Assembly: GCA_038087875.1 (NCBI GenBank)
Contig: CM075990.1
Location: forward strand, 14,448,001 to 14,512,000
Direction of reading: 5' to 3'
From: Malacoraja senta
Lineage: Eukaryota
DNA length: 64,000 nt
Numbering within the stretch: the stretch's first letter is position 1; each line of letters begins with the position of its first letter. Shown one piece after another: positions 6,760-64,000 of this stretch. The notes below the pieces were generated by a model. The model was given only the letters and a program-made list of their open reading frames with translations. It was not told the DNA's origin and made no database searches. Made by a program: the position numbers and the translations under genes.

Positions 6760-7130
6760 AGAAGGAACTGCAGATGCTGGTTTAAACCAAAGATAGATAC
6801 AAAATGCCAGAGTAACTCGGCGGGACAGGCAGCATCTCTGGAGAGAAGGAATGGGTGACGTTTTGGGTCGAGAACCTTCTTCAGATGGAGGTCGGGAGAG
6901 GGAGATACCTAGATAAGGATGTGTAAGGTGTGAAAATAGAACAAATCCACATTCCCTTTGTTCTATTTTCACACCTAACACTTCCTTATCTTTGTATCTC
7001 CCTCTCCCTGACATCAGTCTGAGGAAGGGTCTCAACCCGAAAAGTCACCCATTCTTTCTCTCCAGAGATGCTGCCTGTCCCGCTGAGTTACTCCAGCATT
7101 TTGTGTCTAAACCAGCATCTGCAGTTCCTT
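6760..7130. mobile_element. PLE-derived fold-back (imperfect palindrome, about 370 bp)
   Basis: The left arm is the reverse complement of the right arm, including gtgtgaaaatagaacaaa / tttgttctattttcacac around a short spacer at about 6946-6956. Confidence 0.8.
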
Positions 7131-7906
7131 TAGACACAAAGCTGAAATTAAGCTGATGAGTTCAGTCATTGATGGACAGGGGGCTCCAAATCCAAATGCT
7201 GCAACTACAGAGGAAACAACATTCTTTTTTGGATTCCAAATATCCTTCGGTAAAGGTTTTAAAGATTTTGACTTCCCTTGGGTATGTTTTAATTAAAGAT
7301 AAGCTTAATATAAGCGGAGAGAAAAGTCTAAACCAGTGGATCTTAGATGGTGAAGTGTTGAAAAGTGCAGTGTTCTGAGGGTAATGGGTGCCTTTCATAA
7401 ATCACTGAAGGTTCAGCAAGTAATTAATAAGGCAATTGGTGTTTTGGCCTCCACTACAAATGGGTTTGACTACAAGAGTCGATACGTCTTGCTCTAAGTC
7501 CCACAGAGAAGGTCCCAGTGAGATCTCACCTGCAATATTGTGTGCAGATTCTAGCCTCCCTGCCTAGAAGGATATTGGCAGCAGAGGCAATGTGGGGAGA
7601 TTCACGAGATTGGGAAAACCCCCCACAACATGCTGGAGTAACTCAGTGGGCCAGGCAGCATCTCTGGAGAACATGAACAGATAATGTTTAAGGTCGGGTC
7701 TCTATCCCCCTCTGTGATTCCTGCTCCCTCTCTCATTGGATTGAAAGATACAGGCTGGAAACAGGTTGCCTAAGTTGCTGTTGCTCACACTAGTCCTAAA
7801 TTATCCATCTTTCTCAACCACTTCCCTGCACACCAAGGGCAATTTACAGAGGCAAGATAACCTGCAAACCCGCATGTCTTTGGGATGTGGGCGGAAATCC
7901 ACAACA

Positions 7907-8468
7907 TCATAGATACATAGAAAATAGGTACAGGAGTAGGCCATTCGGCCCTTCGAGCCTGCACCGCCATTCAATATGATCATGGCTGATCATCCAACTC
8001 AGTATCCCGTACCTGCCTTCTCTCCATACCCCCTGATCCCCTTAGCCACAAGGGCCACATCTAACTCCCTCTTTAATATAGCCAATGAACTGGCCTCAAC
8101 TACCCTCTGTGGCAGAGAGTTCCAGAGATTCACCACTCTGTGTGAAAACGTTTTTCCTCATCTCGGTCTTAAAGGATTTCCCCCTTATCCTTAAGCTGTG
8201 ACCCCTTGTCCTGGACTTCCCCAACATCGGGAACAATCTTCCTGCATCTAGCCTGTCCAACCCCATAAGAATTTTATAAGTTTCTATAAGATCCCCTCTC
8301 AATCTCCTAAATTCTAGCGAGTATAAGCCAAGTCTATCCAGTCTTTCTTCATATGAAAGTCCTGACATCCCAGGAATCAGTCTGGTGAACCTTCTCTGCA
8401 CTCCCTCTATGGCTATAATGTCCTTCCTCAGATTTGGAGACCAAAACTGTACGCAATACTCCAGGTGT
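7907..8468 (-). mobile_element. CR1 3' fragment, same subfamily as the full-length copy
   Basis: Near-identical to 12398-12960; HLEYCVQFWSP...YEERLDRLGLYSLE. Confidence 0.9.
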
Positions 8469-15600: not shown

Positions 15601-15603
15601 ATT

Positions 15604-17939: not shown

Positions 17940-18705
17940 TGTAGGAAGGAACCGCAGATGCTGATTTAAACCGAAGAAAGACACGAAAAGCTGGAGTAAC
18001 TCAGCGGGACAGTCAGCATCTCTGGAGAGAAGGAATGGGTGACGTTTCGTGTCGAGACCCTTCTTCAGACTGAGAGTAGGGGAAAGGGAAATGAGAGATA
18101 TAGAACGTGATGTCGACTCAGATGCAGAACAAATGAATGAAAGATATGCAAAAAAGTACGATGATAAAGGAAGTTGGCCATTGTTAGCTGTGGCCTCGGT
18201 GAAAACGGGTAAAGACAACGAGACTCAACAAGACGACTTTGAAGCTGGTACGACTTGGGCGGGGGGGAGGGATGGAGAGAGGGGGGATGCAAGGTTTACT
18301 TGAAGTTGGAGCAATCAATATTCAAACCACTGGGTTGTAAGATGTCCAAGTGAAATATGAGATGCTGTTCCTCCAATTTATGTTTCGACTCACTCTGACA
18401 ATGGGGGAGGCCTGGGTCAGAATGGTCAATGTGGGAAGGGGAATTAAAGTGTTTGGCAACCGGGTAGGTCCAGTCAGACTGAGCAGAGGTGTTCAGCGAA
18501 ACGATCGCCCAGTCTACATTTGGTCTCGCCGATGTGTAAGAGTCCACACCTTGAACAATGGATATAGTAGATGAGGTTGGAGGAAGTGCAAGTGAACCTC
18601 TGCCTAACCTGAGAGGACTGTCTCAACCTGAAACGTCATCTATTCCTTTTCTCCAGAGATGCTGTTTGACCCGCTGAGTTACTCCAGCTTTTTGTATCTT
18701 ATCTT
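17940..18705 (-). mobile_element. Penelope-like element 3' fragment with inverted terminal copy
   Basis: Degenerate GIY-YIG tail (VAKHFNSPSH..LEEQHLIF..QPSGLNID) at 18296-18600. An inverted copy of the terminus lies at 18621-18705. Confidence 0.8.
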
Positions 18706-19260
18706 CAGGATCTGATACTGCTGGGGATAACAAGCTAAAGCTTCCAATTCACAATGCTGGTGACTGGGGTGCAACTACTAGAGCCATTGCCTCACTGCTC
18801 CAAAGGCCCAGTTTGGATCCTGCCTCTGTGGAGTTTGCATGTTCTCATTGTGTGCGTTTCCTCTGGGATCTCCATTTTCTCCCTCATCCCAAAGACGTGT
18901 GGATTAGTAGATTGATTGATCAGTGTAATATATAGGTGGTAGAATCTGGGGATTGATGGGAAGGTGGGTGAGGAAGGAATTAAAACTAAAATAAACCATT
19001 GTGAATGCAATCAGTCTGCAGAAGGATCCCAACCCAAAATGTCACCTATTCATGTTATCCAGAGATGATGCTTGACCCACTGAATTACTCCAGCACTTTG
19101 TGTCCTTTTGCGTAAACTAACATCTGCAGTTCTATGTTTCTACATATAGGAAAAACTCAGTAGGTCTGGCCGTATCCATTGGAAAATTCTGAAGACGGGT
19201 CTCGACCCGAAACGTCACCCATTCCTTCTCTCCAGAGATGCTGCTGGTCACGCTGAGTTA

Positions 19261-19816: not shown

Positions 19817-20706
19817 GTGAGAACGTTGCTTGCTCATTCTCCCACTTCCAGCAGTCCGCCTGGTTCACAGTCGTGTCTGTCCCTTCCTCGCAGCGATGGA
19901 AAACAAGTTAATTTAATTTGGTCATATTTTGTGGACTGGCATTCTGATGAAATGAAGTTCGTGTGACAGCCAGGAATGTGATATGCAAAAACAATTATTT
20001 TACAGTCAGTCACAGGAAACATTGATGGAATATATTTGTTGCACTCTTGCATAAATTGAACATTCTTTGCTTTTGCACACCCCACATTGTCTTTGTTGGA
20101 TCATCTCTCTACAGCTGTGATAAATTGCATGGAATCTTTCGCTTGTTGAGTGGGTAACCTTGCTGGCCACTCTGTTCAATCCCAGTTATTGGCCAAACTG
20201 TGAAAGTAGCTACAAATCCTCGTGCATCCGCTGCCTGGGCATTTCTGACATTTGTTTCTAAAGTGGAACAAATTGTTCCTCTGGTGACTCATTGAGTGAG
20301 TAAAGGCAAACTGCGGGGGGAACTCAACGGGTCAAGCAGCATCCGTAGAGGCAGAGGGACAAAGAGAAAACGAAGAACTGCAGGTGCTGGTTTATACCAA
20401 AGATAGACAAAGCGATGGAGTAACTCAGCAGGTCAGGCAGCATCTCTGGAGAAATCGGATGGGTGTCATTTCTCTTAGTAGTCTGAGGAAGAGTCCCGAT
20501 CTGATACATCACCCATCCTTTTTCTCCAGAGATGCTGCCTGACCTGCTGAGTTACTCCAGCACCTTGTGTCAATTTGAGGCAGAGGGATAGGCAGGCCTG
20601 ATGCAGGGTCCTGACCTGAAATGACGACTATTCCCTCTGCCTCTACACATGCTGTTTGGCTGCTGAGTTCCTCCAGCAGTTTGTTTCCAGCACCTGCATT
20701 CTCTCT

Positions 20707-21855: not shown

Positions 21856-22619
21856 CACCCTGTATCTCCAACCATTTTGCTAGTTGGTTTATATCTGAGT
21901 GGTGGCTTCAACATGAAATCATCAGTGAGTTCACAACTGGGATGAAATTGAACCAGAGTGAAATCTCACAGTGAAGCAATAATCTTTGTTCAGATAATGT
22001 CCAACACTACTGTCCCCTGAAGCTGCAGTTATACTGTCTGCCTGCACAACTGCTGCAGTCGGGAGAAAATCAGCTGGACTCATTACATTAATAACACGTT
22101 AAACAGAAGAGTCGGTCGCTTACTGCCATCAAAAATTCAAAGATCGGGACCTGTCTGCTTTCCGGTAAAATTACATTTAAAACATTGGTAGGCAATCTTG
22201 CCCAGTAACGGATTGGGACAGAGCAAGCCAGAAGAAATGGGATCGTCACAAAATGCTGGAGTAACTCAGCGGGACAGGCAGCATCTCTGGATGGAAGGAA
22301 TGGGTGGCGTTTCGGGTCGATCTTTATGTCTATCTTTGGTGCAAACCAGCATCTGCAGTTCCTTCCTACACAGAAAAAATTGGACATGTACCTGGACCAC
22401 TGCACATGGCTTGGGTATCAGTGCTGAACATCTGCAGATACAACCACTAGCTGTCTCGCAACTTCCTAACTTCAAAACTCCACCTTGCCCCTCAGACTGC
22501 CAATAGACTGCCTGGCACTGTGTAATAAAAAGCCTCAGTACTCTGATAACTGCCCCTTGACCTTTAGCCCACAGAGTCCGCACCGACTAGCGATCCCCGC
22601 ACATTAACGCTATCCTACA

Positions 22620-22795: not shown

Positions 22796-22835
<40 letters not shown>

Positions 22836-24935: not shown

Positions 24936-26369
24936 GTGTGAAATATTTTATCCCACATGGATGGTGTCAGCTGTTTGCTTTCACAAGTAAATATCACTAT
25001 TCCGCTGAGTTACAAATTTCAAACTCCGAGCAAGTCTACTTTTTTTGACATCTATTCCAGTATTAAGTAAGACTTGTTACCACTGCATTATTCATCACAG
25101 CTGTGACAGTGATTACTTTAAAACTTGACCTGTTTTATATTCAACTTTATTTAAAAGTGTATTAGGATTAGCATTATTTTTGGTGACTGAATGTTTTCCT
25201 TTTAATTATTATTCCTGCTGTTATATTTGACAAAAAGCACTCCTGTATACTGTTTATATGCCTATTTGCTATTTTCCCACTTGGGTAATAATGTACATGA
25301 ATGATTCATGCCTAACATACATAATGCATAATTAAATCACCGTTTGATGGAGTGGAATTTATTAATTGTGAAGACACATGTGTTTCTGTAATACACTAAT
25401 TTATTTCGATAGTTTTTATTGCTACATTGCTCACTCAGCTGTAATCAGCTACTCTGAGTTACTAAGTAGCAGTTGTACACTGTTGTAACAAATTATCTGC
25501 AGGAACAAGCTAAATACATACAGGGACTGTTAATATACGCATTGGAGTAATACGTTTTTTTAAAGAAAACTTATCAAATTAATTACAGTAATGGTGGCAA
25601 CTTGATCATTTGTCCTTGGTTGTCAAAAGTAAATTTTGATGGATTAACAAGGCTGATAGATTGCAGATTGTGGGTGGAATTTGTGTCAATTATAAATAAT
25701 GGGTTGTGTTAACAGTGCGAGCAGCAATGGAAGCACTTACATCAATTATCAATCTTATTTTGCTTTTAGCCAACTGATGAACAATAAATGTATTTTATAT
25801 TTATATCTTCCACGCTAAATGATGTGGTCGCAGTCAGGAGGGTTGGGTGCCAGTGTGTGACGGCTTTGTCAGTTATGCTTTTGTTTTGTGGTATCAGGTA
25901 CTGAGGTGGAAATGTTCTGTATATTGTGTGTCTGAGATGATTTCACTGGAACGGAAAGCATGGAAGGGTGACTGTTTTAAAACAGTGTGTCCCCCAGTGG
26001 CTGTGTATAAAATTACCACCCAGTCTACCCCAGACGAGAAGATAGGCACAAAAAAGCTGGAGTAACTCTGCGGGTCAGGCAGCATCTCTGGAGAAAAGGA
26101 ATAGGTGATGTTTCGGGTCGAGACCCTTCTTCAGACGCCGTATTTCAGACCAGAATGAAATCAGCTGGTCTTCACTATCAGGCAACACTAAATGGGCTAC
26201 AATTGTCCTCTAAACCTATAATAAGAAAAACTGGAGATAGACACAAATTTCTGGAGTAACTCAGCGGGTCAGGCAACATCTCTGGAGAGAAGGAATGGGT
26301 GACGTTTAGGGTCGAGACCCTTAAACTGAAATTGGTTTTTTTTTACCACGAATTTCATTAATGTTGCTT

Positions 26370-28283: not shown

Positions 28284-28869
28284 AGGGCCTGTCCCACTTG
28301 GCTGTCATTCGCGCGCCATTTACGCGACTTGCTAGCGTGTGGGTAGCGGGGACGGGCGCATGGAGTGGTGTGCAGGAGTGTGGACTTCGTCCTGAACGAA
28401 ATCTTCGCGCGCCACCAGCCTGTCGCGTAACTGACGGCCAAAGTGGGACAGGCCCAAGACCCTGGCGCGGCGCAACGTCTCACCTCCAACAGCAGCAGAA
28501 GCAGGAAAACGGTCGCCGAACTCAGCCTGGGGCTCACGGCCGTTGCGGATCCGGATCCGCCCCCACTCCTACTCCCAGAGCGGGGCCAAGACGATTGGAG
28601 ATAGACACAAAATGCAGGAGTAACTCAGCGGGACCGGCAGCATCTCTGGAGAGAAGCAATGGGTGACGTTTTGGGTCGAGACCCTTCTTCAGACTGAAGA
28701 AGTCTCGACCCAAAACATCATCCATTCCTTCTCTCCAGAGATGCTGCCAGTCATTTTGTGTCCCTTCAAATGACGTCACGCGCTCCAGACGGCTGTGCGG
28801 ACGCATGATGACGCGCGCCACTCACTACCGGCCTGTCGCGTAAATGACGGTCCAAGTGGGACAGGCCCT
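28284..28869. mobile_element. PIF/Harbinger-type MITE
   Basis: 18-bp TIR AGGGCCTGTCCCACTTGG / CCAAGTGGGACAGGCCCT with TAA TSD at 28281-28283 and 28870-28872. Inserted in a PLE fragment and contains a PLE fold-back at about 28600-28765. Confidence 0.85.
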
Positions 28870-29260: not shown

Positions 29261-29392
29261 GAGTCTGAAGAAGGGTTTCGACCCGAAACGTTACCTATTT
29301 CCTTCGCTCCATAGATGCTGCCTCACCCGCTGAGTTTCTCCAGCATTTTTGTCTACCTTTGATTTTCCAGCATCTGCAGTTCCTTCTTAAAC
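29261..29392 (+). mobile_element. 132-bp PLE hammerhead micro-insert with 13-bp TSD
   Basis: atagagaatatat occurs at 29248-29260 and 29393-29405. The insert starts gagtCTGAAGA. Confidence 0.88.
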
Positions 29393-40440: not shown

Positions 40441-41775
40441 ATCAGTTGTGATATTTATGGAAAGTACAGTTCTTTAAGTCATTGGGCTCCTAGTATTAAC
40501 TTCTTTTATTTCCAGAATACTCTTGAAAATAGTCGTTTTAATATGAAGATCGATCTCAAGTAGATCAACTCTCATTTTAGGTCCAACACTGAACAAGGAG
40601 TTGACACCAGGCAGCTGGAGTAACTTTGCGAGTCAGGCAGCATCTTCTGGAAAAAAGGAACAGGTGATGTTTTGGGTCGCATAAGAAATAGGAGCAGAAT
40701 TAGGCCATTTGGCTCATCAAGTCTACTCTGCCATTCAATCATGGCTGATCTATCTCTACCTCCTGATCCCATTCTCCTGCCTTCTCCTGCCTTCTCCCCA
40801 TAACCTCCAACACCTGTACTAATCAAGAATCTATCTCTGCCTCCATAACCTTCTGTGGGAAAGTATCCCACAGATTCACCACCCTCTGACTAAAGAAATT
40901 TCTCCTCATCTCCTTCCCAAAGGAACGTCCTTTAATTCTGAGGCTATGACCTCTCGTCCTGGATTCTCCCACTGGTGGAAACCTCCTCTCCACATCCACT
41001 CTATCCAAGCCTTTCACTATTCTGTATGTTTCAATGAGGTCACCCCTCTTTCTTCTAAACTCCAGTGAGTACAGGCCCAGTGCTGACAAACGCTCATCAT
41101 AGGTTGACCTACTCATTCCTGGGATCATTCAGTCTGAAGAAGGTTCTTGACCCGAAACGTCACCTATTTTTCTTCAGGGGTGTTGCCTGATCCACTGAGT
41201 TACTCCAGCATTTTGTGTCTATCTTCGGTGTAAACCAGCATCTGCAGAACCTTCCCAGACTGAACAAGGAGTCATTGACTCTGGGTGTGAGTTAAAAACC
41301 CATTTCAAAAATGATGACTACATTTGCATTTGGTTATCTGCCAAATTCTCATAAGAGGTATCAACACACAGGGATAAGAAGCCATTGCTGGAATAAAATA
41401 AAACTGCTGGAAATTTTCAACAGGTCGGCAGTAATTGTGAAACGGAGAGGCAGCATTAGTTTCGGGAGTTATCAGAATTAGGAGAAAATTGGAGATTGTT
41501 ATGTATTAAGTTGCAGCGAAGGTGATGAGTGGAGAGAGCAAAGGCAGTGATAGTGAAAGGGTGAAGAACAAGGAGAGCGGAATGACAGAACTGGGGGAGA
41601 GATGTGCTGGCTGAGAGAGGGTGATAAATGATGGGTAAATACAACTGATCAGTTTGAGAGATGTAAATAGAAGGGGATGAATGAGAGCAGAGGAGAGAGA
41701 GAAAAGAAATTCTGCAGCTGTTTTTCCAGATGCACTGATCTCAGTTGTGATCAACGGAGGCATCCGAGATGCTCT

Positions 41776-42145: not shown

Positions 42146-43577
42146 TTAATCATTTTTGTTAAAGTTGATCTTTGGTTGGGGCACATCAGTGATTATAGAA
42201 GCACTAATTTGTTTAGAACAGTTACACTGAATTAACGGAGTGCCTTTCAGGTCCTCATTCATATCATTGAATTTCACAGACAATGGATATGACTTGGATG
42301 CAGTTATGGTTTTCCTGTACATCGGTGGAGCTGCATACTAAATCTCGTTGCACTGACGTGCAATGACAATAAAAGATATTATTATTATTATTATTATTAT
42401 TATGCACGTCACCACAGGTACCAAGTTCCAACAAGAAGTCATCTACAGTTGCTGCATATCTGAAATAGATGGGAGACCTGGTGAAAACTCAGCGCGTCTA
42501 GCAACAGTCGTGGGGAAAGAGAAAACTGAATTAGCATTAATTGAAAGTTTGATGAAAGCTGTTGAAATTGGTGAATTAATTGTGATGTATTGAGGAGAGC
42601 AGAGTGCCAAGTTGGAAGATGAAGTGCAGTTCCTTGAGCTTACTGTGGGCTTTCTGCCGACTGTCACCTTGCTAATTGCTGCCTATTAACTTCCATTGAT
42701 CCGGGGTTCCTTTGAACAACACCTTTTAATCTCCCTCTTTTCAAAATACTCCACTTCTCTGTTGCGTTCTGTCAAAGTGGATGACCTTACATTGTAATCA
42801 CATTATATTCCACCTCAATGGCCTGACCCATTCACGTAACTTGTCGAGACCTCGTGAAGCCTCTCTCACAACCCGCATTGCCACTTTGCTTTGTATCATC
42901 AGTGTAGTTGGATCTGCTACACTTGGCACTCATGATCCATTCTTCATTGATATTGATCGTGAACAGCTGAAGCCGCAGCACCAATGCAGTGGCTTCACAC
43001 TCATTGCAGCCTCCCAACCATTGAGTCATCTATTTATTCCTGCTCTGTTTACTCTCTGAAGTCGTCCTCCAGGAAACTGTCTGGGAATGTGTCCAGAGTC
43101 AAGTTGTCAGTCTTGCTGCGGTGATTAATGTTGCCTTTGTGACTTCTTCCTTCCTCAATGACCTTCTGATGGATCACAGATTTGCAAAACCCTTGGTTGA
43201 TTTTCTTTGCTGGTTGCAAAGAACAATCTTTGTTTCATTCATTGACTGCCGAGTGGCAGGTAATTTGTACACTGGTGACCAACTCATCAGAGATAATAAG
43301 CAATACTTCCTGATGCACTGACCTCATTTATAATCAACTGAGGACTCAGAACTGCTCTTGGTTGAACCTGATCTTTGTTTTGGGCAAATCTGTGGATTCA
43401 TTTAAATGAGTTATATTGAATTTAAGGAGTGAGTTTCAGGTCCTTATTTGTATCAATGAATTTCACAGACATTGGATTGTTTCTGAATGTGGTTATGGTT
43501 CCATGTGGGCGAATACAGCTGCCAATTTGCATGTAACAAGTGCCAACAAAACGCTGGGAGACACCTTTACTCTTTAG

Positions 43578-43670
43578 GTAGACAAAAGTGCTGGAGAAAC
43601 TCAGCGGGTGCAGCAGCATCTATGGAGCGAAGGAAATAGGCAACGTTTCGGGCTGAAACCCTTCTTCAGA
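43578..43670 (-). mobile_element. 93-bp PLE hammerhead micro-insert with 24-bp TSD
   Basis: ctgggagacacctttactctttag occurs at 43554-43577 and 43671-43694. Confidence 0.88.
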
Positions 43671-44832
43671 CTGGGAGACACCTTTACTCTTTAGATAGAG
43701 TCTTTAGCACCGATCACACCTCTAACAGGGCAGCAATCTCTCTTTAATGCAGCAAAGTACATTATATGATCAAATCTGCAAGTCACAGCCATCTCACTTG
43801 GAACTGAAAGGGTTGCCACTGAACCAAGATATTCCATCCCATTGTCAAACATCAAGTGATTTTTTTCCATTAGATTTGATCAATTGATTGATTGAAAGAT
43901 ACGACATGGAAACAGGCCTTTCTGCCCATTGAGTGAACACTGGCCTTATCTCACTTTTGCATCCACTCTCGACACACTAGGGGCAATTTGCAGAGGCCAA
44001 TTAACCTGCAAAACCACACGTCTTTGGGCTGTAGGAGGAAACTGACACATCTGTAAGAAAGCCACGTGGTCACAGGGAGAATATTAATGATGATCATCAA
44101 CAAAGAAAATTATTTAAAATTGTTCAGTGGAATAAGTGGTGTGTTGTGTTAATTGTTTAATAGTGATAATGATATAAAAGCATCAGCTAAGATATATATA
44201 TAAAAATTAACATTTATCAAAGTGAATATTGTCAGCAGAATGGATACTTTTTAACCAATGTAATTTCTTCAACATAAATTAAATCCAATAATTAATGTAA
44301 GAGTAATTCTTGGCACAATGCAGGCTGACATAAAGAGGAACGAAAGTAGATCATCTAGTTATGGGGGAATGATCGGATGTGAGTGTCCTTGGTCTTTCAA
44401 TCTAAGTAGCTTTTTTTTTAAAAGTATAAAACATGATATATATTTTGCATACCGTTTGGAATGCAACATTTACTGTCTCCACCTTACAAAAATGTGACGT
44501 GTTTTAAAGAGCAAACTTTCCCATCTCTGCAGAGGCATGATCAGAGCAGAGCATCCAGGGGTAGTTTTTACAATTAAGTGCACAGTTCAACTCTCCTGTC
44601 TGACTTCGTAAATGCTGCCCTCTCAAATGTTTAACTAATTGGATCAGTGTAGCATTTCATTACTCACCATCTGCAGGAGCACATTGCAGTAAAGGCAATG
44701 TAAGATGTTCCAATTATTTGATTATCAAAGATTAAAGATTTCTGATACATATTACCTGCTGTATTATAACCTGTGTTCATGTTCTTGTCAACTGATGCAT
44801 TTTCATGGACCTTCGAAGTGTGAGCACTGTTA

Positions 44833-45300
44833 TAGGTGAGACCAAGCGTAGGCTTGGCGATCGCTTCGCCGAACACCTCCGCTCGGTTCGCAATAACCAA
44901 CCTGATCTCCCGGTGGCTCAGCACTTCAACTCCCCCTCCCATTCCGAATCCGACCTTTCTGTCCTGGGCCTCCTCCATGGCCAGAGTGAGGACCACCGTA
45001 AATTGGAGGAGCAGCACCTCATATTTTGCTTGGGCAGTTTGCACCCCAGCGGTATGAACATTGACTTCTCTAATTTCAGGTAGTCCTTACTTTCTCCTCC
45101 CCTTCTCAGCTCTCACTCAGCCCACTGGCTCCACCTCTTCCTTTCTTCTTCCCCCCCCCACCCTCACATCAGTCTGAAGAAGGGTTTCGGCCCGAAACGT
45201 TGCCTATTTCCTTCGCTCCATCGATGCTGCCTCACCCGCTGAGTTTCTCCAGCATTTCTGTCTACCTTCGATTTTCCAGCATCTGCAGTTCCTTCTTAAA
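44833..45300 (+). mobile_element. Penelope-like element 3' end: GIY-YIG endonuclease C-terminus, 3' UTR and hammerhead motif
   Basis: IGETKRRLGDRFAEH...VAQHFNSPSH...LEEQHLIFCLGSLHPSGMNIDF, followed by CTGAAGA...GAAAC at 45174-45198. Confidence 0.85.
45170..45206 (+). ncRNA. minimal type-I hammerhead ribozyme motif (representative copy)
   Basis: CUGAAGA-(A)-stem II GGGU[UUCG]GCCC-GAAA-CG-UU. The other subfamily has GGGU[CUCG]ACCC-GAAA-CG-UC. It lies in the PLE terminal repeat, where such motifs are known. Confidence 0.7.
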
Positions 45301-46329
45301 CTATTATTGTAAACTGTTTTTGAGGAAATATTTCCAAAAGTGCTCTAAAATATTAACCAATATATCTTTATAGTATTTACCATTGCATTTCAAAAGGTTA
45401 GATTATAATAACTTGCACGTTATTCTACATTATTTCTTTTTGCTTCTGAGTGCTGGTTTTTCCTCTTAGCTTAGTTCTGTTTAGAGATACAGCGTGTAAA
45501 CAGGCCCTTTGGCCCACCGAGTCGCGCCAGTGAGCACCCGTACACTAGTTCAATCCTACACACTAGGGGAAATTTACTGGAGCCAATTAACCTACAAACA
45601 CGCTTGTCTTTGGAATGTGTTCGGAAACTGGAGCAACTGGAGAAAGCTCATGCGGTCACAGGGAGAACGTAGAAACTCCATACCAACAGCACCAGTAGTC
45701 AGGATCGAACACGGGTCTCTGACGCTGCAAGAGTCGCCAAGTTTCAACAAAGTGACATGAAGTTCATTGAACAGAAGTAGAAGTTGAAGCAGAAGTAGGC
45801 CATGTGACGCCTCTTGCTTGCTTCACTATTCAATTAACTTATGGGTGACCTTTTACCACAGTGCCATCGACCTGTTCTAATATTATAGCCCTTGACACTT
45901 AAATATACAAAAAATTATCAATCTCATTGTTGAATATACTCAGCGACTAAACCACCACAGTTTCTATGGTAATAATTTCCAAAGATTCACTTGATGAAGG
46001 CATTTCCTGTTCTGAATGACTGACCCTTTTTTGAGACTTGTGATCTCTAGTTCGAGACAATCCAGCCAAGAGAAAGATCAAAGTTGCATCTTGCCATGAG
46101 AATTTTGAACGTTTAATGAGACAACCTCTCATTCTTCCAAGCTTTAGCGAGTTTAATCTCTTCTCATAAGGACATCCTTACACCTAATGTACCTAATATA
46201 CACCTTACTTGCATCTCCTCTATTGCAAAGACATCCTACTTGGAATGAGGAGGTAAGACCCATACACAATATTCCACTTTTTACAATTTCCATAAGATGG
46301 TGGCACAGTGCCACGGCAGGTTATGTTAC

Positions 46330-51356: not shown

Positions 51357-51414
51357 TTAAGATCAGGATGGCAATGTGTTAATGTGCTGGCAGAATACGG
51401 GAACAAAGGGACAA

Positions 51415-51685: not shown

Positions 51686-52859
51686 CATCTGTCCTTGTTT
51701 GGTCAATGAGGTGTGTGCATATGCGGGGCCTTTCCAGAGTGTGCGCATGAGCGGGGTCTCGGGCCGGCGAGGCCTGCGGAATCAGCGATATTTTCCAGAC
51801 GCTTTGAAGTTATGTATTACGAGTAGCGTAAAAGTTTCATTTGCCTCACAACAGTCCATATCCCCCCTAAATCAATGTACTTGTAGAAACATATTTTAAA
51901 TGTATAATCAATGAACAATTTCACAGTATCAGATTCTTCATCTTTCTTTTGTTGGCTTTTACAGAATCTAACTGCAGCCCATCAAGAAGACTTAATCTAC
52001 AATGTTCAATGAAATACAAAACCACAGAGACAGGACCTTGGTGATGTTGGAGCCCCCACTTTCATACTTATCAAGCCAGTAAAAACATTATTTGCAGATA
52101 AAATGCAGAAACAACCAACTGCAGATTAATGCTGGTTAATGCACAAAGTGAGTCAGGCAGCTGCTCTGGAGAACGTGGATAGGTGACCCGAAACGTCAGC
52201 TATCCATGTTCTCCAGAGATGTTGCCTGACCTGCTGAGTTACTTCTGCATTTCATGTCATTCTTTGTAGATAAGTTTAAATTAGGTTTACTAATTCACAA
52301 ACGGTAGGACACTTACTGTCTGATCAGTTGGTTATGTAGTACCAAATGTGACTGCCAGTAAAAGCTTTGGATTGCTGGTATACCAATAAATTCTTCAAAA
52401 TAATAAAAAGGTGGAATCCTGGAAATGCAATGTACATTCCTGTCAGTTGGCAGTGGAATCTACCCAGCTAGATTAACATGCTAGCTTCTACATTAAATTC
52501 AACATTATCAGCAACAATAATACGTTGCACTGAAGATTTAAAAAATGCTTCTGTTAAAACCTGATGTTAATGATGGTAAAAGAGTGGTCAGAAAATAACT
52601 AAAGGTCTCATCTTTCACGTTGCAAAGTTGCACTTTAATGATGGAGGAAGGAACTGCAGATGCTGGTTTAAACCGAAGATAGACACAAAAAGCTGGAGTA
52701 ACTCAGCGGGACAGGCAGCATCTCTGGAGAGAAGGAATGGGTGACGTTTCGGGTCGAGACCCTTCTTCAGACTGGTTAGGGATAAGGGAAACGAGAGATA
52801 TAGGCGATGATGTAGAAAGATAAAGAGCAATGAATGAAAGATATGCAAAAAAGTAACAA

Positions 52860-53290
52860 TAGAAACATAGAAAATAGGTGCTGGAGGAGGCCCGTCGGCC
52901 CTTCGAGCCAGCACCGCCATTCATTGTGATCATGGCTGATCGCCCCTATCAATAACCCGTGCCTGCCTTCTCCCCATATCCCTTGACTCCACCAGCCCCT
53001 CGAGCTCTATCTAACTCTCTCTTAAATCCATCCAGTGACTTGGCCTCCACTGCCCTCTGTGGCAGGGAATTCCATAAATTCACAACTCTCTGGGTGAAAA
53101 AGTTTTTTCTCACCTTAGTCTTAAATGACCTCCCCTTTATTCTAAGACTGTGGCCCCTGGTTCTGGACTCGCCCAACATTGGGAACATTTGTCCAGTCCT
53201 TTTATGTTTCTATAAGATATCCCCTCATCCTTCTAAACTCCAGTGAATACAAGCCTAGTCTTTTCAATCTTTCCTCATATGACATTCCCG
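52860..53290 (-). mobile_element. CR1 3' fragment inserted into a Penelope-like fragment
   Basis: RTRGHSLRIKG...VVNLWNSLP. Flanked by PLE sequence on both sides (52645-52860 and gataaaggaaacaggccattgttagctg at about 53293). Confidence 0.85.
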
Positions 53291-54373: not shown

Positions 54374-57300
54374 TAGCACGTACATGCTACGAGCTGCCTG
54401 GGGAAATGGTCGACACAGTTACGATTATGACATGTAAAAGACACTAAGACAGATACTGGATCGGAACGATTTGGAAGGTTATGGCAGTGGAAGGTGCCGG
54501 CAAGTAGGTCTAGCTCAGTTAAGGAACTAGGTCGGCATGGAAAAAAGACACTAAGTGCTGAAGTAACTGAAGGCTACTTTTCGGGTCGGGACCCACCTTC
54601 AGACCAATTGTAGTGGGGGGGGGGGGGGGTGAAAGGTGGGGACGGGCAAAAACAGGCAAGTAATAGGTAGAGACAGGTAAAGGTGTTTCTGACTGGCAGA
54701 TGGATTGACAAAGGCCAGAGATGGGAAGAAGGCAAAAGCTCATGAAAGAAGAAGAGAAGAGGGGTGAAATGTAAAGGTGGACGAAGGGATATGGATGGAA
54801 GGGGATGAGGAAATGGGGGGCAGATAGTGGGAGAGGTGGGTGTGCATCCAGGTGGGGCACAGTGAAAAAAGGGGGAAGGTGTTGTTGGTTAGTTACTTAA
54901 AATGGGTGAATTCAATGTTCTTGTCGTTAGGTTGTAAGGTGCCCACGTTGAATGTGAGGCGCTGTTCCTCCGGTTTCGTGCTAAATACTTCTATGATTCT
55001 ATGATAGCTAGTTGATTACCAAGTGCACTGTGGTTTTCTAAAACATGTTCTAACTGCAATGTTATTTGCACAACAACATTGCCAAAGCCTGATCATTCCA
55101 ACAGCCAGGGACAATTTTGGTATTCTGATGTTGGTTGAATTAAATGTAACCATTATATCTGTTTGCTTTGGACACTTACCAGGGACAGAACACTCTTGCC
55201 TTGTATTTGCTCCCTGCTATATGCAGTTTCTAATGTTTACTGGCTGGTAGACACAAAATGCTGGAGTAACTCAGCAGGACAGGCAGCATCCCTGGACAGA
55301 AGGAATGGGTGACGTTTCGGGTCGAGACCCTTCTTCTGAGTTACTCCAGCATTTTGTGTCCACCTTTGATTTAAGCCAGCATCTGCAGTTCTTTCCTAGA
55401 CACTTCTTCTGTTTGCTGTCCATTTCCTCTGAAAATCATTAATATTGAAGTCGACAAAATTAACTAATAATTGAATTTAATTTAAAAAAGAATGAGTTCC
55501 GGAAACAAAGTACAGCTCACCAATCACATGTTTACTGCCACTGATTCGGAATACATTTCTGATATCTGTGATATCTGTGAACATCTGTGATAATGCTAGT
55601 TACACTGATGAGCCTCTCTCTCTGTTTGTGAAGAAATGTCTGGAAGCATGTAAGAACCAAATTCTACAAGATCCTACTTTTACTGATGTGACCTTGGAAT
55701 GAGAAGAGGCTGATGTGGCTGTATTTATTGCCACAAGATGATGGTTAAAAGCTGCCTTCCTGCACTGGACCCATTTGTTAAGGGTCAATCTCATAAGATG
55801 GTTAGAATGATATGTAGTCGAGGTCAGAGAAAGGTGACAGATTCTCTTACCTGGAGCAGATTAGTAAACCATTTTTGTTTTTACAGCAATTCAACATGAA
55901 CATATCCCCAGATGTCAACCCATAAATTATCAGAATTATTGAATTCAATTTCACGACTTGTTAGGGAGGGATTTGAAATGTTGACCTCTGCGATCTTATT
56001 TCACATCCATAACATTATGGTACTCGGGCATATGAGGCAGTACTGTGGTAGGTCTTTGGAACTTCTGACTTACAATGTTGAGTCACGTTCCAGTTATCAT
56101 TTCATGCTAAATAATGGATAGAAATGGCTGCTCACTAATCTACTGAATCTCACAGAGTAGACAGAATGTTCATCGCTTGTTGTTTCATGTTCCATGCTCT
56201 AAAGGTGTTAGAATTTAACTTTCTTCTCTGGAATTTCTTTGGTGCAGTGAAGAGGGAAATTGCTGACAAATACCAATTGGCTGCTGTTGTAAAGGTGTTT
56301 TATCAGGTGAAATTAATGCACAGAGTTATATTTAAGGAAGAGATCTTAAAATATGCTTTAATCTCACATAGGTAAGCTGGTGACATTTTAGTGTGTCGGA
56401 AGGGACAGCAGATGCTGGTTTTAACTGAAGATATACACACAAGGGGCTGGAGTAACACAGTGGGTCAGACAGCATCTCTGGAAAAAAGGAATAGGTGATG
56501 TTTCGGGTCAAAACCCTTTTTTAGACATTTTAGTGTTCTATACATCGACAATAGGAGTAATATTTAGTATAGGAAAATTAATTTTGAGTTATAGATTTTT
56601 TATTAGTACGGGTGTCAGAAGGCAGGAGAATGGGGTTAGGAGGGAGAGGTAGCATGATTGAATGGCGGAGTAGACTTGATGGGCCGAATGGCCTAATTCT
56701 ACACCTATCATTTATAACCTTTTGAATAGTGAGCACCTTGTTAATACAGGGAAACCATGGATACATCAAATATTTAGTGAAAATATTTCTTCAGGAGAGT
56801 GATCCTTCTTCCCAGTGCTGTGTCCTTTACAACATTGCTTCCATTGAAATACATCACCTTTAGCATGAAGGTAGAACATCAGGCCACATTCTATGCTCAA
56901 GGCTTGGAATGAATAGGGATTGTGGCCAGACAAAGACATCAAAAGTTGATCAGTAACGATCAGTGAGCAGAGTTAAAACTTATCCTTTGAAAATATGTTA
57001 AAATGTAACAATGTGCTCCACATGTCTGAAACTGTTTCATCGCCAAAATGTATAACATGTATTGAGTACATATTCCTTCCTTCCTTCCTAATCAATCACC
57101 TTTCCTGTCAGAACTCGGCGAGACACATTACATCAGACTTGAGAATGGTACTTTTCCAAAAGACACAACAACACAGGAAAATAGGAGCAAGATTCAGCCA
57201 CCAGTCAGTCCCCTGAATCCTGTTCCACCTTTCAATATGATCTGTCCCACATATTAATTCTCTCCTGTGCCAATTCCTCAACCCCCCCCCCCCCAAAAAA

Positions 57301-59745: not shown

Positions 59746-62700
59746 TTGATGCTTCCAACATTACCATTGATAATTGGCTTCCCAATGATGGTAGGTACCA
59801 TCTTCACTATCAGGGTTTAAACATGGTATTGATCCTCTTCCTCTGATCAGGGTTACTCCATCCTGTTCCTCAGAGGGATAGCAGTTACTACTGCTGCTTC
59901 ATAGCCCCAGCAACCAAGATTTGATGCTGACTTCAGATGCTGTCAATGTGGAGTTTGTACATTCTCCCAGTGACTTCATAGGATTCTATTTCTCCCTTCA
60001 TCCCAGAGACACACGTGGGTTGATAAGTTAATTGGGCACTGTAAATTATTCTCAACGTGCAGTTGGGAGTGAGAAAAGTGAGTTAGTGAGTATGATACAT
60101 CATATTTGATTGGTTAAATAGCGGGCATTGTGTGTAAGCTGTGAGATGTGGTGTTAGCTTTGCAGCTTTGATAGGTGAAGATTCATCCAGGCCCCACACA
60201 AAATCTCCATCTCATCTACACTTCATACAACATAGACAGCATAGATCCGCACCAGATACCATGAGTTTCTGGTCTTGTTTAAAGACCATGTGACGATGCA
60301 TAGGATCATGGCACAGAAGAAACCCATGATGGGTCAGAGGGTGTAGACATCTCGCCAACTTCATGCTTTCTAATAACTGCAACCACACTGCTGTCTGATT
60401 GGAATTCATTGACAAGGGACAATGATCATGACTGGTTTGCCATAGATAAATCTTGTGAATATTTCTTAGCACTAGCTTGGACATCATAGATGTGGAATAC
60501 CAAGGATGACCTGGTAGGTTCTTGAAGAAAGGGACAAAGCAGCAGTGAGAAGCTCCATGGCTTTAGGATGCTGCAATGGGAAGTTTGGTGGAGGAGGTGG
60601 AAAGGAGTTGTGATGGCCCATATTGGCAGAGATGCTCCAAGCTCACAACCCGGCAGTGGTGCAAGCAGATAGCCACGGAAGTCAAACCAGGAGTCCAGCC
60701 CTGAGGTCCAGGATGCAACATTGTAAGAAACTCAATGATCTCACACCAGTGGTCAAGGTCAGTGAATACAACTTCAAATGCCATATTCTATCAACTCCAA
60801 ACATAGCCCTTGGTCTTTCCCAATCCACTGCCTGCTAACTACTTACTACCAGCAATCGCTAACAGTCAGTTGTCATGTTCATATGCTCCATTGCACCTAC
60901 GTACACTTATTGTAGCTGCAAGCCTAACACCACACCTCTTGGCTTGCGCACGCTGCCAGCTATTCAACAGCAGGATCTAGGTCATTCTAACAGGTTGCTG
61001 GGGCTCACTCTTTAGATAGTGTGGCCAACACCCAGAGGAAGTGTAGCAAATCCACACATCCTTACCCTGAGGGGCAGGTATTGACTACCATTGGGACACC
61101 AACGCTCAATGGTGGAGTCAGTATCTCCACATCTCACATCCCCTTCAAGGCACACCTTCTTCTGACTCACCGTTTGCAGATAGTGTAAGTGTGTACATAT
61201 ATTTACCCACTAACCTGCCCTTTCTGTATCAATGTCTAACCTTTGTGGCCCTTTGATTTCAGAGACCCAAGAACTGCACTGTCATACCCTGGCGCAGCCT
61301 GGATTTTAGGTATGATTGATCTGCAGGCCTTGAGACAATGGCCACTGGTGGCTTGCAGTCATGGTAAGGCAAAATAACTGTGCCAGGTTCCAATTATCAT
61401 GGGCTAAGTTTGCAGCTGAGTCCTGCTGCAGTATGTCCAGATGTTAACTTTGACGGGGAACCCTATTGATGAGGCTGAGCACTGTGTAATGCTCCGTGCA
61501 TTGAAGAAGGGTCCCAACCCGAATTGTCACCTATCCATGTTCTCCACAAATTCTCCAGAGATGCTGCCTGACCCGTTGAGTTACACATTTTAACTACTTT
61601 CTGATTCATTGTTTCAAGCAAAGGATGTCAACCAGGGGAACTAACCTGTCCTGAAAAGAGGGCCTTTAAAATGACTATGTTGGCAGCAGATCATGGAACT
61701 CACTGACTAGGGTGAACACAAAGTTCAAGATTAACTCAGCGGGTCTGGCAGCATTTGTGCAGGAGGCGAATAGGGTCGGGACCCTTGGTCACTGACTGAG
61801 ATCCTTGGTTTGTCCACTTCCACACATGTCCAGCTGAGGTCCACAAACGATCCCATGAATAAGGTCCCTCCTCCATGGGTTTGGTAGGGATTCACTTTCA
61901 AAGCCCAAATAACACGCGGAACTCTTGCGCTACTGATCAGAAATGTTACACGGTTTATGTTGAACATGTTAGACAGGAACATTGGACAAATGGTGAAAGG
62001 TCTTAGCAGTATATTCAAGTTAGATTAAAAAACTAATTTGAAAAGATGAATGTATTCCCTTCCTGTTAGCCAGAATCAGATAGAGCCCGACTTGAAGCTG
62101 CACAGACTTCTGATTATTGAATTTTTATGGGCTTGTAATTAATTGCAGATTCCCTGTTTTGTTCTATTTCTTTTTCTTTGACATTTTAATTTCAACAAAA
62201 AGCAGCAGTCTCCATGCAGCCCTTCTCTGGAGATCCTAATGGCCTATAAAACAAAATGAGTTATAGATATGTGGTGGACTTCAATTGGTTAGTAAGAGTT
62301 GAAACCTTGCTGATCATGCTGTATTAAATTTTTTTTGCTCATATTCCTACTTCTTGTCTATTAAATTGTAGCTACATCTAAAGAACGAAAATATATCAAA
62401 CCTACACCGAGTGGTAATATATTATACTCGCTCCATATGACATTCTGAAAGATGCTGCACTTCCTATTAAATTCATCTCGCTGGCATTTAGGAAGTTGCC
62501 CTTGGTTTTCTCTGTATGTGGATCATAGCACTTCAGTATTCCGTCCTAGACTGAGTGAAAAACAATGTAAATCACACTGACCCTCCACTTAAAGACACGC
62601 TTTCTGTCATCATTTTGTTAACATGGTGCTAAATGCACTCTAATCAACTGCTTGGCCTTGACAAATACATTTCATTGCCAATGGTTCTTATAATGCTGGA

Positions 62701-64000
62701 GCTGCATCCACCCTATTCGCTGCAGTTTTGTGATCCAAGGAAATAAAAAAAATATTTATATATTTTGTTAGACGCAATTTTAAAAGCAATGAAAATGAAA
62801 AAGAACTGCGGGTTCTGGGAATGTAAAATAAAAAGAGAAAATGCTGCCAATACTCAGCGGGTCAGTCCACACCTGTGGGAAGAGAAATAGAATTTTTAGT
62901 TTTCAGTTTTAGTTTGCAGCGATCCCCTGCACACTTACACTATCCTATACACACCAGGGAAAATTTACAATTATACCAAGCCAATTAACCTACAAACCTG
63001 TACGTCTTTGGAGTGTGGAAGGAAACCGGAGCTCCAGGAGAAAATCCACACAGGTCACGGGAAAAACATACAAACTCCGTACAGACAGCACCAGTAGTCA
63101 GGATTGAATCAGAGTCTCTGGCGCTCAAAGGCAGCAACTCTACTGCTGCACCAACGTGCCAATAGAAGTTAATGGTTAGGTCGAAGGTCCTTTGTCTTTT
63201 AATTTACTTCACTGCTTTATTCCCCTCCAGGAATGCCTAACCTGATGAAGCCCTACTCCACCCTTCGACAGGATAATCTGCTTGCCTCTCCAGCTTTATA
63301 TTTCACTAGTTCACTCCTCTTCTTTCCTTGTCACTTCCTTAGCCTTTGTCACTATCTCTACCCATCAGCCATTCATCCACCTCTCTCACCAGTATCCACC
63401 TATCACTTAAGATAGACCCATAAAGCTGGAGTACCTCAGTGGGACAAGCAGCATCTCTGGAGAGAATTGGGTGACGTTTCGGGTTGAGACCCTTCTTCAG
63501 ACAGTCCCACCCCCCCCAACCTCTTTTATACAGCTGTCTGCACCCAACTGCATCAATCTGAAGAAGGGTCCCGATCCATTCCATCCACAGATGCTGCCTG
63601 AGCTGCTAAACTCCTCCAAAACGTTTTTTTTGTGCTCAAGAATGTGCCTTTCGCTCGTGCCTTTCTCATCTTCATTTTTGTTTTCCATGTTGTCTTTGAT
63701 AATGTGTTGTCCAAAACCCTACTTCCATGGCCACCTCCCTTTCCTCAGCTGCTGTCCCTGAATACCAGATCACCTTGTTTTTCAGCTTATTCCCACAAAC
63801 ACCTCCCTTTCACCCTTTCGGAGACCGTTCCCCCCTCTCCCTGTACCTTAACAAGATTCCACTCTCTCCTGTATAGGAAAGAACTGCAGATGCTGGTTTA
63901 AATCAAAGGTAGACACAAAATGCTGGAGTAACTCAGCGGGACAAGCAGCATCTCTGGAGAGAAGGAATGGGTGACGTTTCGGGTCAAGACCCTCCTTCCA

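What the first reader, a model, noticed from the sequence alone, without database searches (positions are those of the whole stretch)
6760..63995. Dispersed family of short Penelope-derived inserts built around a minimal hammerhead ribozyme
Seen in sequence: a repeat of about 90-190 bp recurs across the window, for example near 7016, 18040, 19190, 26110, 29262, 31050, 38675, 41130, 43645, 45171, 52740 and 63475. It contains CTGAAGA-A-[stem II]-GAAACG-TH. Two subfamilies keep stem II paired while changing sequence: GGGU[UUCG]GCCC and GGGU[CUCG]ACCC. The base after the putative cleavage triplet (GUU^G or GUC^A) still pairs with the U before CUGA. Stem III is reduced to the self-complementary ACGU/AACGUU. 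Established: Penelope-like element pLTRs carry such minimal type-I hammerheads that can work as dimers. Inference: many copies start right at agtCTGAAGA and have their own TSDs, so this looks like a retrozyme-like non-autonomous ribozyme element mobilised by the GIY-YIG PLE whose tail is at 44833-45083.
Basis: partly seen in the sequence, partly recalled or inferred. Interest (0 to 1): 0.7.

Follow-up and report, generated by a model that had tools for sequence, protein, structure and literature searches.

The report
Penelope run-off inserts with minimal hammerhead
About 7% of this likely skate DNA window consists of short end-pieces of a Penelope-type retrotransposon carrying its known minimal hammerhead-ribozyme motif, and many start just upstream of that motif, likely because reverse transcription runs off the 5' end of the element's RNA rather than because they are a separate retrozyme.

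Summary
The repeat is real: 51 pieces, 4,514 bp, 7% of the window. It is the hammerhead-plus-'tail' end of GIY-YIG Penelope-like elements (PLEs), probably Neptune-type, in a likely skate; four copies still carry the ORF end. Minimal hammerheads, dispersed single copies, inverted pairs and tails are all published PLE features.

Of 29 pieces that reach the core, 19 stop within -6..+1 of C3, and none of 51 starts at the cleavage site. Contig junctions at 45171-45173 in two public runs agree.

The retrozyme reading is weak. The window holds no tandem units, short solos do not form one lineage (p-AU 0.0005), stem I is 2 bp, and only 7 of 25 complete cores are intact.

Best model, inferred: reverse transcriptase primes internally at the 5' copy of the tail and runs off a transcription start at an Inr-like TCAGTCT, giving 95-135 bp 'strong-stop-like' inserts. 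Self-cleavage was not tested.

The parts
44832..45083 (+). 3' end of the PLE ORF (C-terminal half of the GIY-YIG endonuclease), subfamily a, 5'-truncated copy
   Evidence: tblastn 82% identical to P0002; homologs P0004 and P0009 hit Pfam RVT_1 and GIY-YIG
45084..45170 (+). pyrimidine-rich pLTR spacer (subfamily-specific)
   Evidence: pyrimidine fraction 0.9 in the last 40 nt
45169..45175 (+). Inr-like TCAGTCT (also reads as YAG/ splice-acceptor-like); 5' breakpoint hot spot at 45171-45173
   Evidence: motif in 8 of 10 spacer-bearing copies; loose ends in runs X19 and X21; role inferred
45172..45203 (+). minimal type-I hammerhead motif: C3 at 45174, stem II 45182-45185/45190-45193, G12 45194, ACGU 45197-45200, predicted cleavage after 45201, 2-bp stem I
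   Evidence: activity untested
45204..45301 (+). post-hammerhead segment with two 3' end points (about 45267 and 45301); the 34-nt difference is the PLE tail
   Evidence: 3' loose ends at 45266/45267 and 45301; 3' end histogram
30986..31450 (-). long subfamily-b copy: GIY-YIG end, spacer, hammerhead, short 3' end; 8-bp TSD candidate
17940..18706 (.). long copy on - (GIY-YIG with CxxC, spacer, hammerhead, tail; 18623-17940) plus short inverted arm on + (18620-18706); 15-bp TSD with 1 mismatch
54576..54970 (-). old long copy: ORF end, about 290-nt spacer, decayed hammerhead
6761..7130 (.). head-to-head inverted pair, each arm with about 65 nt of spacer
33102..33289 (.). inverted pair joined in the stem II palindrome; arms 100% identical; 14-bp TSD
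29538..29703 (.). inverted pair joined in stem II; 15-bp TSD with 1 mismatch
38429..38631 (.). inverted pair; 11-bp TSD with 1 mismatch
20375..20574 (.). inverted pair with 14-bp TSD, nested in an older inverted pair (20309-20687)
28599..28752 (.). inverted pair joined at the TCAG-T-CTGA palindrome
22241..22370 (.). inverted pair (weak TSD)
55248..55397 (.). inverted pair joined by a 4-nt microhomology (weak TSD)
29261..29393 (+). solo short insert: 13-bp TSD, one extra G, then starts at A(-3); intact core
43576..43673 (-). solo short insert, TSD of 24 bp or more ending in CAG microhomology; intact core
56396..56526 (-). solo short insert, 13-bp TSD ending in GTC microhomology; decayed core
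37326..37427 (-). solo short insert starting at A(-3), 11-bp TSD with 1 mismatch; G12A
39493..39607 (+). solo short insert, 13-bp TSD with 1 mismatch and 7-nt filler
26038..26136 (-). solo short insert starting at -2
41130..41255 (+). solo short insert at the edge of a LINE-like fragment; 9-nt TSD/microhomology candidate
19012..19260 (+). two neighbouring solos (19012-19132 old; 19188-19260 intact core, 3' end cut short)
38672..38777 (+). solo short insert starting at -1
52641..52862 (-). spacer-bearing subfamily-b copy with intact core and tail
63409..63577 (.). old inverted pair
63875..63998 (-). copy cut by the window edge

Best explanation
The repeats are the hammerhead-plus-tail ends of GIY-YIG Penelope-like retrotransposons of several subfamilies, and the short ones are likely by-products of the autonomous element's own reverse transcription rather than a separate element. 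Shown: four copies join ORF end, spacer, hammerhead motif and tail; 3' ends fall at two sites 34 nt apart; 5' ends pile up at -4..+1 from C3 and avoid the cleavage site; many insertions are head-to-head pairs with TSDs. Established elsewhere (Anolis PAc, PMC11167929): the PLE protein nicks and extends both DNA strands, primes internally at the two tail sites, and uses uncleaved RNA. Inferred: the mRNA starts in the 5' pLTR at an Inr-like TCAGTCT, 3 nt before the core, so it carries the tail twice. Priming at the 3' copy gives ordinary 5'-truncated inserts with spacer and ORF end. Priming at the 5' copy gives a 95-135 nt cDNA that runs off the RNA 5' end, sometimes copying the cap as an extra G, and is joined by microhomology. 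Priming from both nicks gives inverted pairs annealed through the stem II or TCAG-T-CTGA palindromes. The hammerhead is predicted to be a dimer- or protein-assisted motif kept under selection in source elements and left to decay after insertion.
For: ORF ends at 44832, 31450, 18623 and 54970 lie upstream of hammerhead copies in the same orientation; homologs carry RT plus GIY-YIG. In the related contig L013 a 961-codon open frame with RT and GIY-YIG homology starts inside the hammerhead, so the post-hammerhead DNA is the element's 5' part. 3' ends: 22 of 51 pieces at +85..+104 and 19 of 51 at +115..+129; junctions at 45266/7 and 45301 in public runs. 5' ends: 19 of 29 pieces reaching the core stop in a 9-nt window against 4.4% expected (binomial p 2e-19; solos only, 11 of 21, p 3e-10); 0 of 51 start within 2 nt of the cleavage product start. 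Unique-flank loose ends lie before 45171 and 45173 in X19 (17 and 18 contigs) and before 45171 and 45172 in X21 (13 and 11). The consensus flank before 45171 ends in GG in both runs, and window copy 29262 has one G between TSD and A(-3). Summed depth steps up at 45170 in all 4 runs (rough). Inr-like motif in 8 of 10 spacer-bearing copies. Solos are not one clade (p-AU 0.00046) and occur in the a, b and older groups. TSD score of 9 or more in 10 of 23 units against 10 of 300 random pairs. A second family in metagenome contigs also begins at -5..-2 in 4 of 8 loci, two of them contig starts.
Against: No transcription start was measured: all runs were contigs, none on record as RNA, and one search listed no molecule start or end sites. 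The G evidence is thin: one clear window copy; in 37427 the G may belong to the TSD; consensus agreement of the loose ends is only 0.41-0.42; and the letter must differ from C by construction. 45173 is as frequent as 45171 in X19, which also fits a YAG/ splice boundary. Only 24 of 1,764 loose-end rows were shown, so ends at the cleavage site are not excluded genome-wide. The Inr match fails in most metagenome loci, which have ATGT rather than AGT before the core. The depth step is confounded by subfamily-specific spacers and is not a copy number. Classes and upstream exposures in the hazard test were set by hand, and TSD unit bounds were chosen after viewing the sequence. The upper 3' bin is capped by query length. 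Arms were closer to each other than to any other copy in only 2 of 9 inverted pairs. PAc is a Poseidon element, so its mechanism is carried over to this family by analogy.
Confidence: 0.5

Rival explanations
1. Same PLE origin, but the 5' hot spot is an arrest or template-switch site on a long RNA. RT primed at the 3' pLTR stalls where the hammerhead meets the pyrimidine-rich spacer or at the TCAG-T-CTGA palindrome, and the cDNA is joined by microhomology.
For: Spacer pyrimidine fraction is 0.68-0.90 right upstream. One inverted pair joins exactly at that palindrome. A second cluster of 5' ends at +6..+20 sits in the stem II palindrome (14 of 51). Microhomology is seen at several junctions.
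Against: Ends stop at -4..+1, before the pyrimidine runs. The 10 pieces that pass continue for about 45-555 nt at a low hazard. It does not explain a G before -3.
Confidence: 0.25
2. A separate non-autonomous, retrozyme- or SINE-like element of about 130 nt, starting at agtCTGA, is transcribed on its own and mobilised in trans by the PLE.
For: Sharp shared 5' boundary and TSDs. The short part exceeds the ORF end about 3- to 9-fold in summed depth (rough). Two X21 contigs join the tail end back to spacer-like letters and the core, and a 45207-to-45170 back-joint occurs in three runs. PLE-derived retrozymes are reported in vertebrates, including one chondrichthyan (bioRxiv 10.64898/2026.07.22.740005).
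Against: No tandem unit in the window. Solos are polyphyletic; the best long copy was as close as or closer than the best other solo for 8 of 11. Only 7 of 25 cores are intact. No canonical 6-bp stem I.
Confidence: 0.15
3. The boundary is a 3' splice site: the spacer is the pLTR intron, as in D. virilis Penelope, and short inserts derive from spliced RNA or a splicing intermediate.
For: A polypyrimidine tract plus CAG ends at -2 in most spacer variants. In D. virilis the intron end maps to the 5' end of helix I (PMC4209133). Loose ends at 45173. A GT-containing donor-like site lies at the ORF stop.
Against: No shared exon-1 sequence upstream of the solos. No GT..AG joint among the 15 of 175 joints shown. 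All four ORF-bearing copies keep the spacer.
Confidence: 0.07
4. The short inserts are copies of hammerhead-cleaved or circularised RNA.
For: A hammerhead motif is present and conserved across families; Cervera and de la Pena proposed cleavage and circularisation for PLEs (PMC4209133).
Against: 0 of 51 pieces start at the cleavage site. The hammerhead fold is 7.0-8.3 kcal/mol above the MFE in the three full-length short RNAs folded. PAc inserts from uncleaved RNA (PMC11167929).
Confidence: 0.03

Closest known systems
Minimal hammerheads (min-HHR) in pLTRs of metazoan PLEs (Cervera and de la Pena 2014, PMC4209133)
   Same: Core, extra nucleotide between 9 and 10.1, G10.1-C11.1, palindromic 15.2-16.2 with no helix III; mostly dispersed single motifs and opposite-strand pairs, which that paper linked to truncated PLEs.
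   Different: Helix II is 4 bp (7-8 in Schistosoma) and helix I is 2 bp (4-5 there; 2 bp in D. virilis). Cartilaginous fish are not named in the parts I read. A sharp 5' boundary next to the core is not described there.
Poseidon from Anolis carolinensis, PAc (Frangieh et al. 2024, PMC11167929)
   Same: Hammerhead at the pLTR-ORF junction, two RT start sites defining a 30-40 nt tail, no sign that cleaved RNA is the template.
   Different: This family's homologs carry a Cys-rich linker (Neptune-type). The short run-off product from the 5' tail copy is my inference and is not reported in the parts I read.
EN+ PLE insertion anatomy (Arkhipova 2013, PMC3846280; Craig et al. 2021, bioRxiv 10.1101/2021.04.23.441226)
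   Same: 5' truncation, head-to-head inverted copies with palindromes at the junction, optional tail, variable TSDs, solo pLTRs, an Inr-like element in a pLTR.
   Different: Here the inserts are far shorter than a pLTR, very dense (7% of the window) and bounded at the ribozyme's 5' edge.
Non-LTR retrozymes (Cervera and de la Pena 2020, PMC7229834; Li et al. 2026, bioRxiv 10.64898/2026.07.22.740005)
   Same: Short, non-coding, PLE-related, type-I hammerhead, dispersed monomers, long TSDs.
   Different: Retrozymes are tandem arrays, in the 2020 paper with canonical hammerheads and circular RNAs. The window has no tandem units, the ribozyme is minimal and the short copies are not one lineage.

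Membership tests
EN+ Penelope-like element | single ORF with RT followed by C-terminal GIY-YIG endonuclease | tested here: met
   Window fragments are 58-82% identical to the C-termini of P0002, P0004 and P0009; P0004 and P0009 hit RVT_1 (below the curated cut-off) and GIY-YIG. The window itself holds only the EN end, and those fragments alone had no Pfam hit.
EN+ Penelope-like element | [quoted passage not shown] | tested here: met
   Copy 18623-18477 reads YYIHCSRCGLLHIGET; feature defined in Craig et al. Introduction.
EN+ Penelope-like element | optional 30-40 bp tail at the 3' end | tested here: met
   Two 3' end classes about 34 nt apart.
EN+ Penelope-like element | inverted 5'-truncated copy and variable TSD | tested here: met
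   9 inverted units examined, 5 with TSD score of 9 or more.
EN+ Penelope-like element | full-length copy in partial tandem (pLTR-ORF-pLTR) | not testable with these tools
   No genome held; no RT region found in the window.
Neptune clade | extra Zn-finger in the RT-EN linker | tested here: inconclusive
   Present in homologs P0002, P0004 and P0005; the linker is missing from the truncated window copies. Nematis shares the feature.
Neptune clade | RT phylogeny | not tested
   No RT of this family in the window; no tree built.
PLE minimal hammerhead (min-HHR) | core C3-A9, G12-A15.1, U16.1, H17 | tested here: met
   Fully intact with stem II and ACGU in 7 of 25 gap-free pieces; the rest are decayed.
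PLE minimal hammerhead (min-HHR) | extra base between 9 and 10.1, G10.1-C11.1 pair, palindromic 15.2-16.2 | tested here: met
   In the metagenome loci these positions were fixed by my search pattern.
PLE minimal hammerhead (min-HHR) | helix I of 4-5 bp | tested here: not met
   2 bp in the window copies; the third pair is formed in 6 of 13 aligned rows, all from related families. D. virilis also has 2 bp (PMC4209133).
PLE minimal hammerhead (min-HHR) | covariation in helices | tested here: inconclusive
   Stem II pair 4: CG 7, UA 5, UG 1, none unpaired; 1.1-2.1: UA 10, UG 2, GC 1; covariation score reached by 1 of 500 shuffles. Biased by the pattern and by relatedness.
PLE minimal hammerhead (min-HHR) | self-cleavage as dimer or with protein | not testable with these tools
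   Folding does not favour the monomer fold, and co-folding favours other duplexes.
Non-LTR retrozyme | tandem repeats with a hammerhead in two or more consecutive units | tested here: not met
   0 of 15 TRF rows in the window; a few head-to-tail-like joints in public contigs.
Non-LTR retrozyme | independent non-autonomous lineage | tested here: not met
   Solo clade rejected, p-AU 0.00046; tree of 40 of 51 pieces with mostly weak branches.
Non-LTR retrozyme | expressed linear and circular monomer RNA | not testable with these tools
   Only contigs were available.

The most novel reading that the evidence does not exclude
Vertebrate Neptune-type PLEs start transcription on the first base of their hammerhead, and internal priming at the 5' copy of the tail mass-produces 'strong-stop-like' cap-to-tail mini-inserts. 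That would explain the thousands of solo minimal hammerheads in animal genomes, fix the PLE transcription start from DNA junctions alone, and supply the seeds from which retrozymes arise when such units land in tandem.
Probability: 0.4. Interest if true: 0.6.

Novelty: new member of a known kind. Interest (0 to 1): 0.38.

Why it matters
The element class and its ribozyme are known. What could matter is the anatomy of the short copies. If their 5' boundary is the RNA start, it links the in vitro finding of internal RT initiation to a genomic product, explains why solo minimal hammerheads so outnumber full PLEs, and places the ribozyme directly behind the cap, where cleavage would decap the mRNA. 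The open question of what the PLE hammerhead does, and where retrozymes come from, could then be tested with existing genomes and one CAGE or 5' RACE experiment.

Tried and rejected
Rfam scan: no hammerhead family at E<=1; the hits were hairpins formed by inverted pairs. Whole-genome analysis: no genome held. Pfam on the two GIY-YIG fragments: no hit. Viral contigs: 0 matches with two patterns. Sequencing runs: no RNA holder listed and contigs only, so expression, cleavage, circularity and transcription start were not testable. Spliced joint across the spacer: none among the 15 of 175 joints shown. Cleavage-defined 5' ends: 0 of 51. Tandem arrays of the unit: none. Same-template origin of both arms: supported in 2 of 9 pairs only. 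Folding: hammerhead fold not favoured; z-scores -0.61, -2.32 and -0.43 for three full units. Selection on inserted cores: non-CpG core mismatches are 18 of 298 against 335 of 2,819 elsewhere, but G12 (CpG) is changed in 10 of 36. I read this as conservation among source elements, not after insertion. A conserved ORF starting in the tail was considered by inspection and dropped, because the ATG frame is open in subfamily a and closed in b. Earlier scan notes: nothing returned. Literature searches listed no paper on this skate family or on a 5' breakpoint hot spot at the hammerhead; the library lacks most subscription papers and Repbase/Dfam.

Full report
Observation. The motif CTGAAGA-A-GGGT-loop-RCCC-GAAACGTH occurs at all positions named. 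BLAST with two window copies gave 51 pieces, 4,514 bp, 7% of the window. A core regex found 11 matches against 0 in 20 Markov sequences. Rfam has no hammerhead match here. The best protein hits of the ORF end are from Leucoraja erinacea and Rhinoraja longicauda (78-84% identity), so the window is likely from a skate. No genome is held.

The parent element. GIY-YIG C-termini lie at 44832-45080 (+), 31450-31187 (-), 18623-18299 (-) and 54970-54896 (-), each followed by a pyrimidine-rich spacer and a hammerhead copy in the same orientation; a fifth, decayed one lies at 39670-39819 with no hammerhead found after it. Longer homologs carry RT plus GIY-YIG and a Cys-rich linker, which points to Neptune-type PLEs (Craig et al., Introduction); no RT tree was built. 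A pattern scan of metagenome contigs gave 17 loci with the same motif in other families; 5 of 17 have PLE ORF homology. In L013 a 961-codon frame opens inside the hammerhead, so the sequence after the ribozyme is the 5' part of the element, as in Anolis PAc.

The ribozyme motif. The core, the extra base after A9, G10.1-C11.1 and the ACGU palindrome match the published minimal hammerhead (PMC4209133). Stem II is 4 bp and stem I only 2 bp. Across 13 rows (4 window copies and 9 of the 17 loci) the fourth stem II pair is CG 7, UA 5, UG 1, and pair 1.1-2.1 is UA 10, UG 2, GC 1; my pattern constrained the former. Only 7 of 25 gap-free pieces keep the core, stem II and ACGU, and G12 is lost in 10 of 36 b-type pieces through CpG decay. 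The hammerhead fold lies 7.0-8.3 kcal/mol above the MFE in the full-length short RNAs. Published minimal hammerheads are weak, dimer- or protein-dependent, so this neither proves nor excludes activity.

3' ends. 22 of 51 pieces end at +85..+104 and 19 of 51 at +115..+129 from C3 (the upper bin is capped by query length). Contigs of four public runs leave the element at 45266/45267 and 45301. The 34-nt gap is the PLE tail, whose ends are RT start sites in PAc (PMC11167929).

5' ends. Of 29 pieces that reach the core (one window-edge piece left out), 10 continue into a spacer and 19 stop within -6..+1: 8 at inversion junctions and 11 as solos. The background hazard of 0.005 per nt predicts 4.4% (p 2e-19; solos only, 11 of 21, p 3e-10). 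I assigned the classes and upstream lengths by hand; upstream pyrimidine content separates them (0.68-0.90 against 0.30-0.60). A second cluster (14 of 51) lies at +6..+20, in the stem II palindrome. None of 51 starts at the cleavage site (+28). In one search, unique-flank loose ends stand before 45171 and 45173 (X19; 17 and 18 contigs) and before 45171 and 45172 (X21; 13 and 11). Only 24 of 1,764 rows were shown, and X1 and X3 were not fully counted. Summed depth rises 7- to 17-fold at 45170 relative to the spacer bin before it, and the peak after the hammerhead is about 3- to 9-fold above the ORF-end bin at 45056-45074; spacer divergence confounds this and it is not a copy number. In one metagenome family, 4 of 8 loci begin at -5..-2, two as contig starts.

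Insertion anatomy. TSD scores of 9 or more were found in 10 of 23 units (5 of 11 solos, 5 of 9 inverted units) against 10 of 300 random pairs; I chose unit bounds after viewing the sequence. Inverted arms mostly end outwards at tail sites and meet at palindromes or microhomologies, as described for PLEs (PMC3846280). The arms at 33102/33171 are identical; most older pairs are not each other's best match.

Not a separate lineage. A tree of the 40 pieces of 70 nt or more (of 51) scatters the solos (10 changes against 9.8 shuffled; one-clade test p-AU 0.00046; branches mostly weak). Subfamily-a solos sit with the long a copy at 100/98 support. TRF finds no array of the unit. A few head-to-tail-like joints exist in public contigs, so retrozyme-like tandems may occur elsewhere in such genomes.

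Mechanism. The boundary coincides with TCAGTCT or CCAGTCT, an Inr-like motif (consensus recalled) present in 8 of 10 spacer-bearing copies. Copy 29262 has one G between its TSD and A(-3), and the loose-end consensus before 45171 ends in GG in two runs. Untemplated 5' G residues are reported at L1 insertions (PMC4729875, one passage); their cap origin is recalled. I infer that the mRNA starts at A(-3) of the 5' pLTR and so carries the tail twice. Internal priming at the 5' copy runs off the cap after 95-135 nt; priming at the 3' copy gives the longer truncated copies; priming from both nicks gives inverted pairs. Confidence is 0.5 for this step and about 0.9 for PLE origin. Rivals are RT arrest at the spacer or palindrome (0.25), a separate non-autonomous element (0.15), a splice boundary (0.07) and cleavage products (0.03). 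Against the model: no start site was measured, the G evidence is thin, -1 is as common as -3 in X19, and the Inr match fails in most metagenome loci.

Literature seen. PMC4209133, parts 1-2 of 4. bioRxiv 10.64898/2026.07.22.740005, parts 1-3 of 5; its supplements are closed and may list this family for the one chondrichthyan it covers. PMC11167929, parts 1-2 of 4; a search of its 3 held supplements gave no hit, and its Fig. S2 coverage plots, which I could not see, may show the same 5' step. bioRxiv 10.1101/2021.04.23.441226, passages and Introduction. PMC3846280, PMC7229834, PMC7561263 and PMC4729875, passages only. The 2014 paper already reports dispersed single minimal hammerheads and opposite-strand pairs as probable truncated PLEs. 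Searches listed nothing on a 5' hot spot at the ribozyme or on this skate family.

Verdict. A new member of a known kind: a skate PLE family with a minimal hammerhead, not a retrozyme on present evidence. The sharp 5' boundary is real and may be an unreported clue to PLE transcription and reverse transcription. Interest 0.38; 0.6 if the run-off model is confirmed.

Noticed in passing
window 35939-36502 (+): Intronless-looking 187-aa ELO (GNS1/SUR4, fatty-acid elongase) reading frame, Pfam PF01151 E 1e-35; the only clear host gene segment seen.
   Followed up: partly
window 13049-15799 and 15604-16773 (-): A 916-aa uninterrupted endonuclease/RT-like frame and an upstream 389-aa frame, CR1 LINE-like by recall; possibly a young near-full-length copy.
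   Followed up: no
window 3764-3847 and 29538-29703: Two PLE pieces inserted at the same motif (GCCAATTAACCTAC) of another abundant short repeat, suggesting a target preference.
   Followed up: partly
window 20309-20687: An inverted PLE pair nested inside an older inverted pair of the same family; several other copies lie within 60-190 bp of each other (19012/19188, 26136/26322, 38521/38672), suggesting self-targeting.
   Followed up: partly
tables 5 and 5c (reference 45167-45297): Two X21 contigs join the tail end to spacer-like letters and back to the core, and a 45207-to-45170 back-joint appears in X3, X19 and X21; possible short tandem (retrozyme-like) units. Joint type not shown for table 5c.
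   Followed up: no
protein P0005 (Stegostoma tigrinum), C-terminus: Ends in SLMKGLRPKRQ, which looks like read-through into a related hammerhead motif, suggesting the same pLTR layout in sharks (inferred from translation only).
   Followed up: no
L002, L003, L005, L006, L009, L012, L015, L016: A second PLE family with the same core (CUGAUGA, AACU loop), two 3' end classes and copies that begin just before the core.
   Followed up: partly
L013:17-2902 (+): Intact 961-codon PLE frame that opens directly after the two TGA triplets of the hammerhead core.
   Followed up: partly
window 10387-10477: Near-perfect 90-nt inverted repeat at an inversion inside a LINE fragment (Rfam miRNA-like hit below gathering score).
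   Followed up: no
window 45230-45285: The post-hammerhead segment holds two CCAGCAT motifs 27 nt apart; the second pairs with AUGCUG upstream in the predicted folds and may form the RT-binding structure.
   Followed up: no
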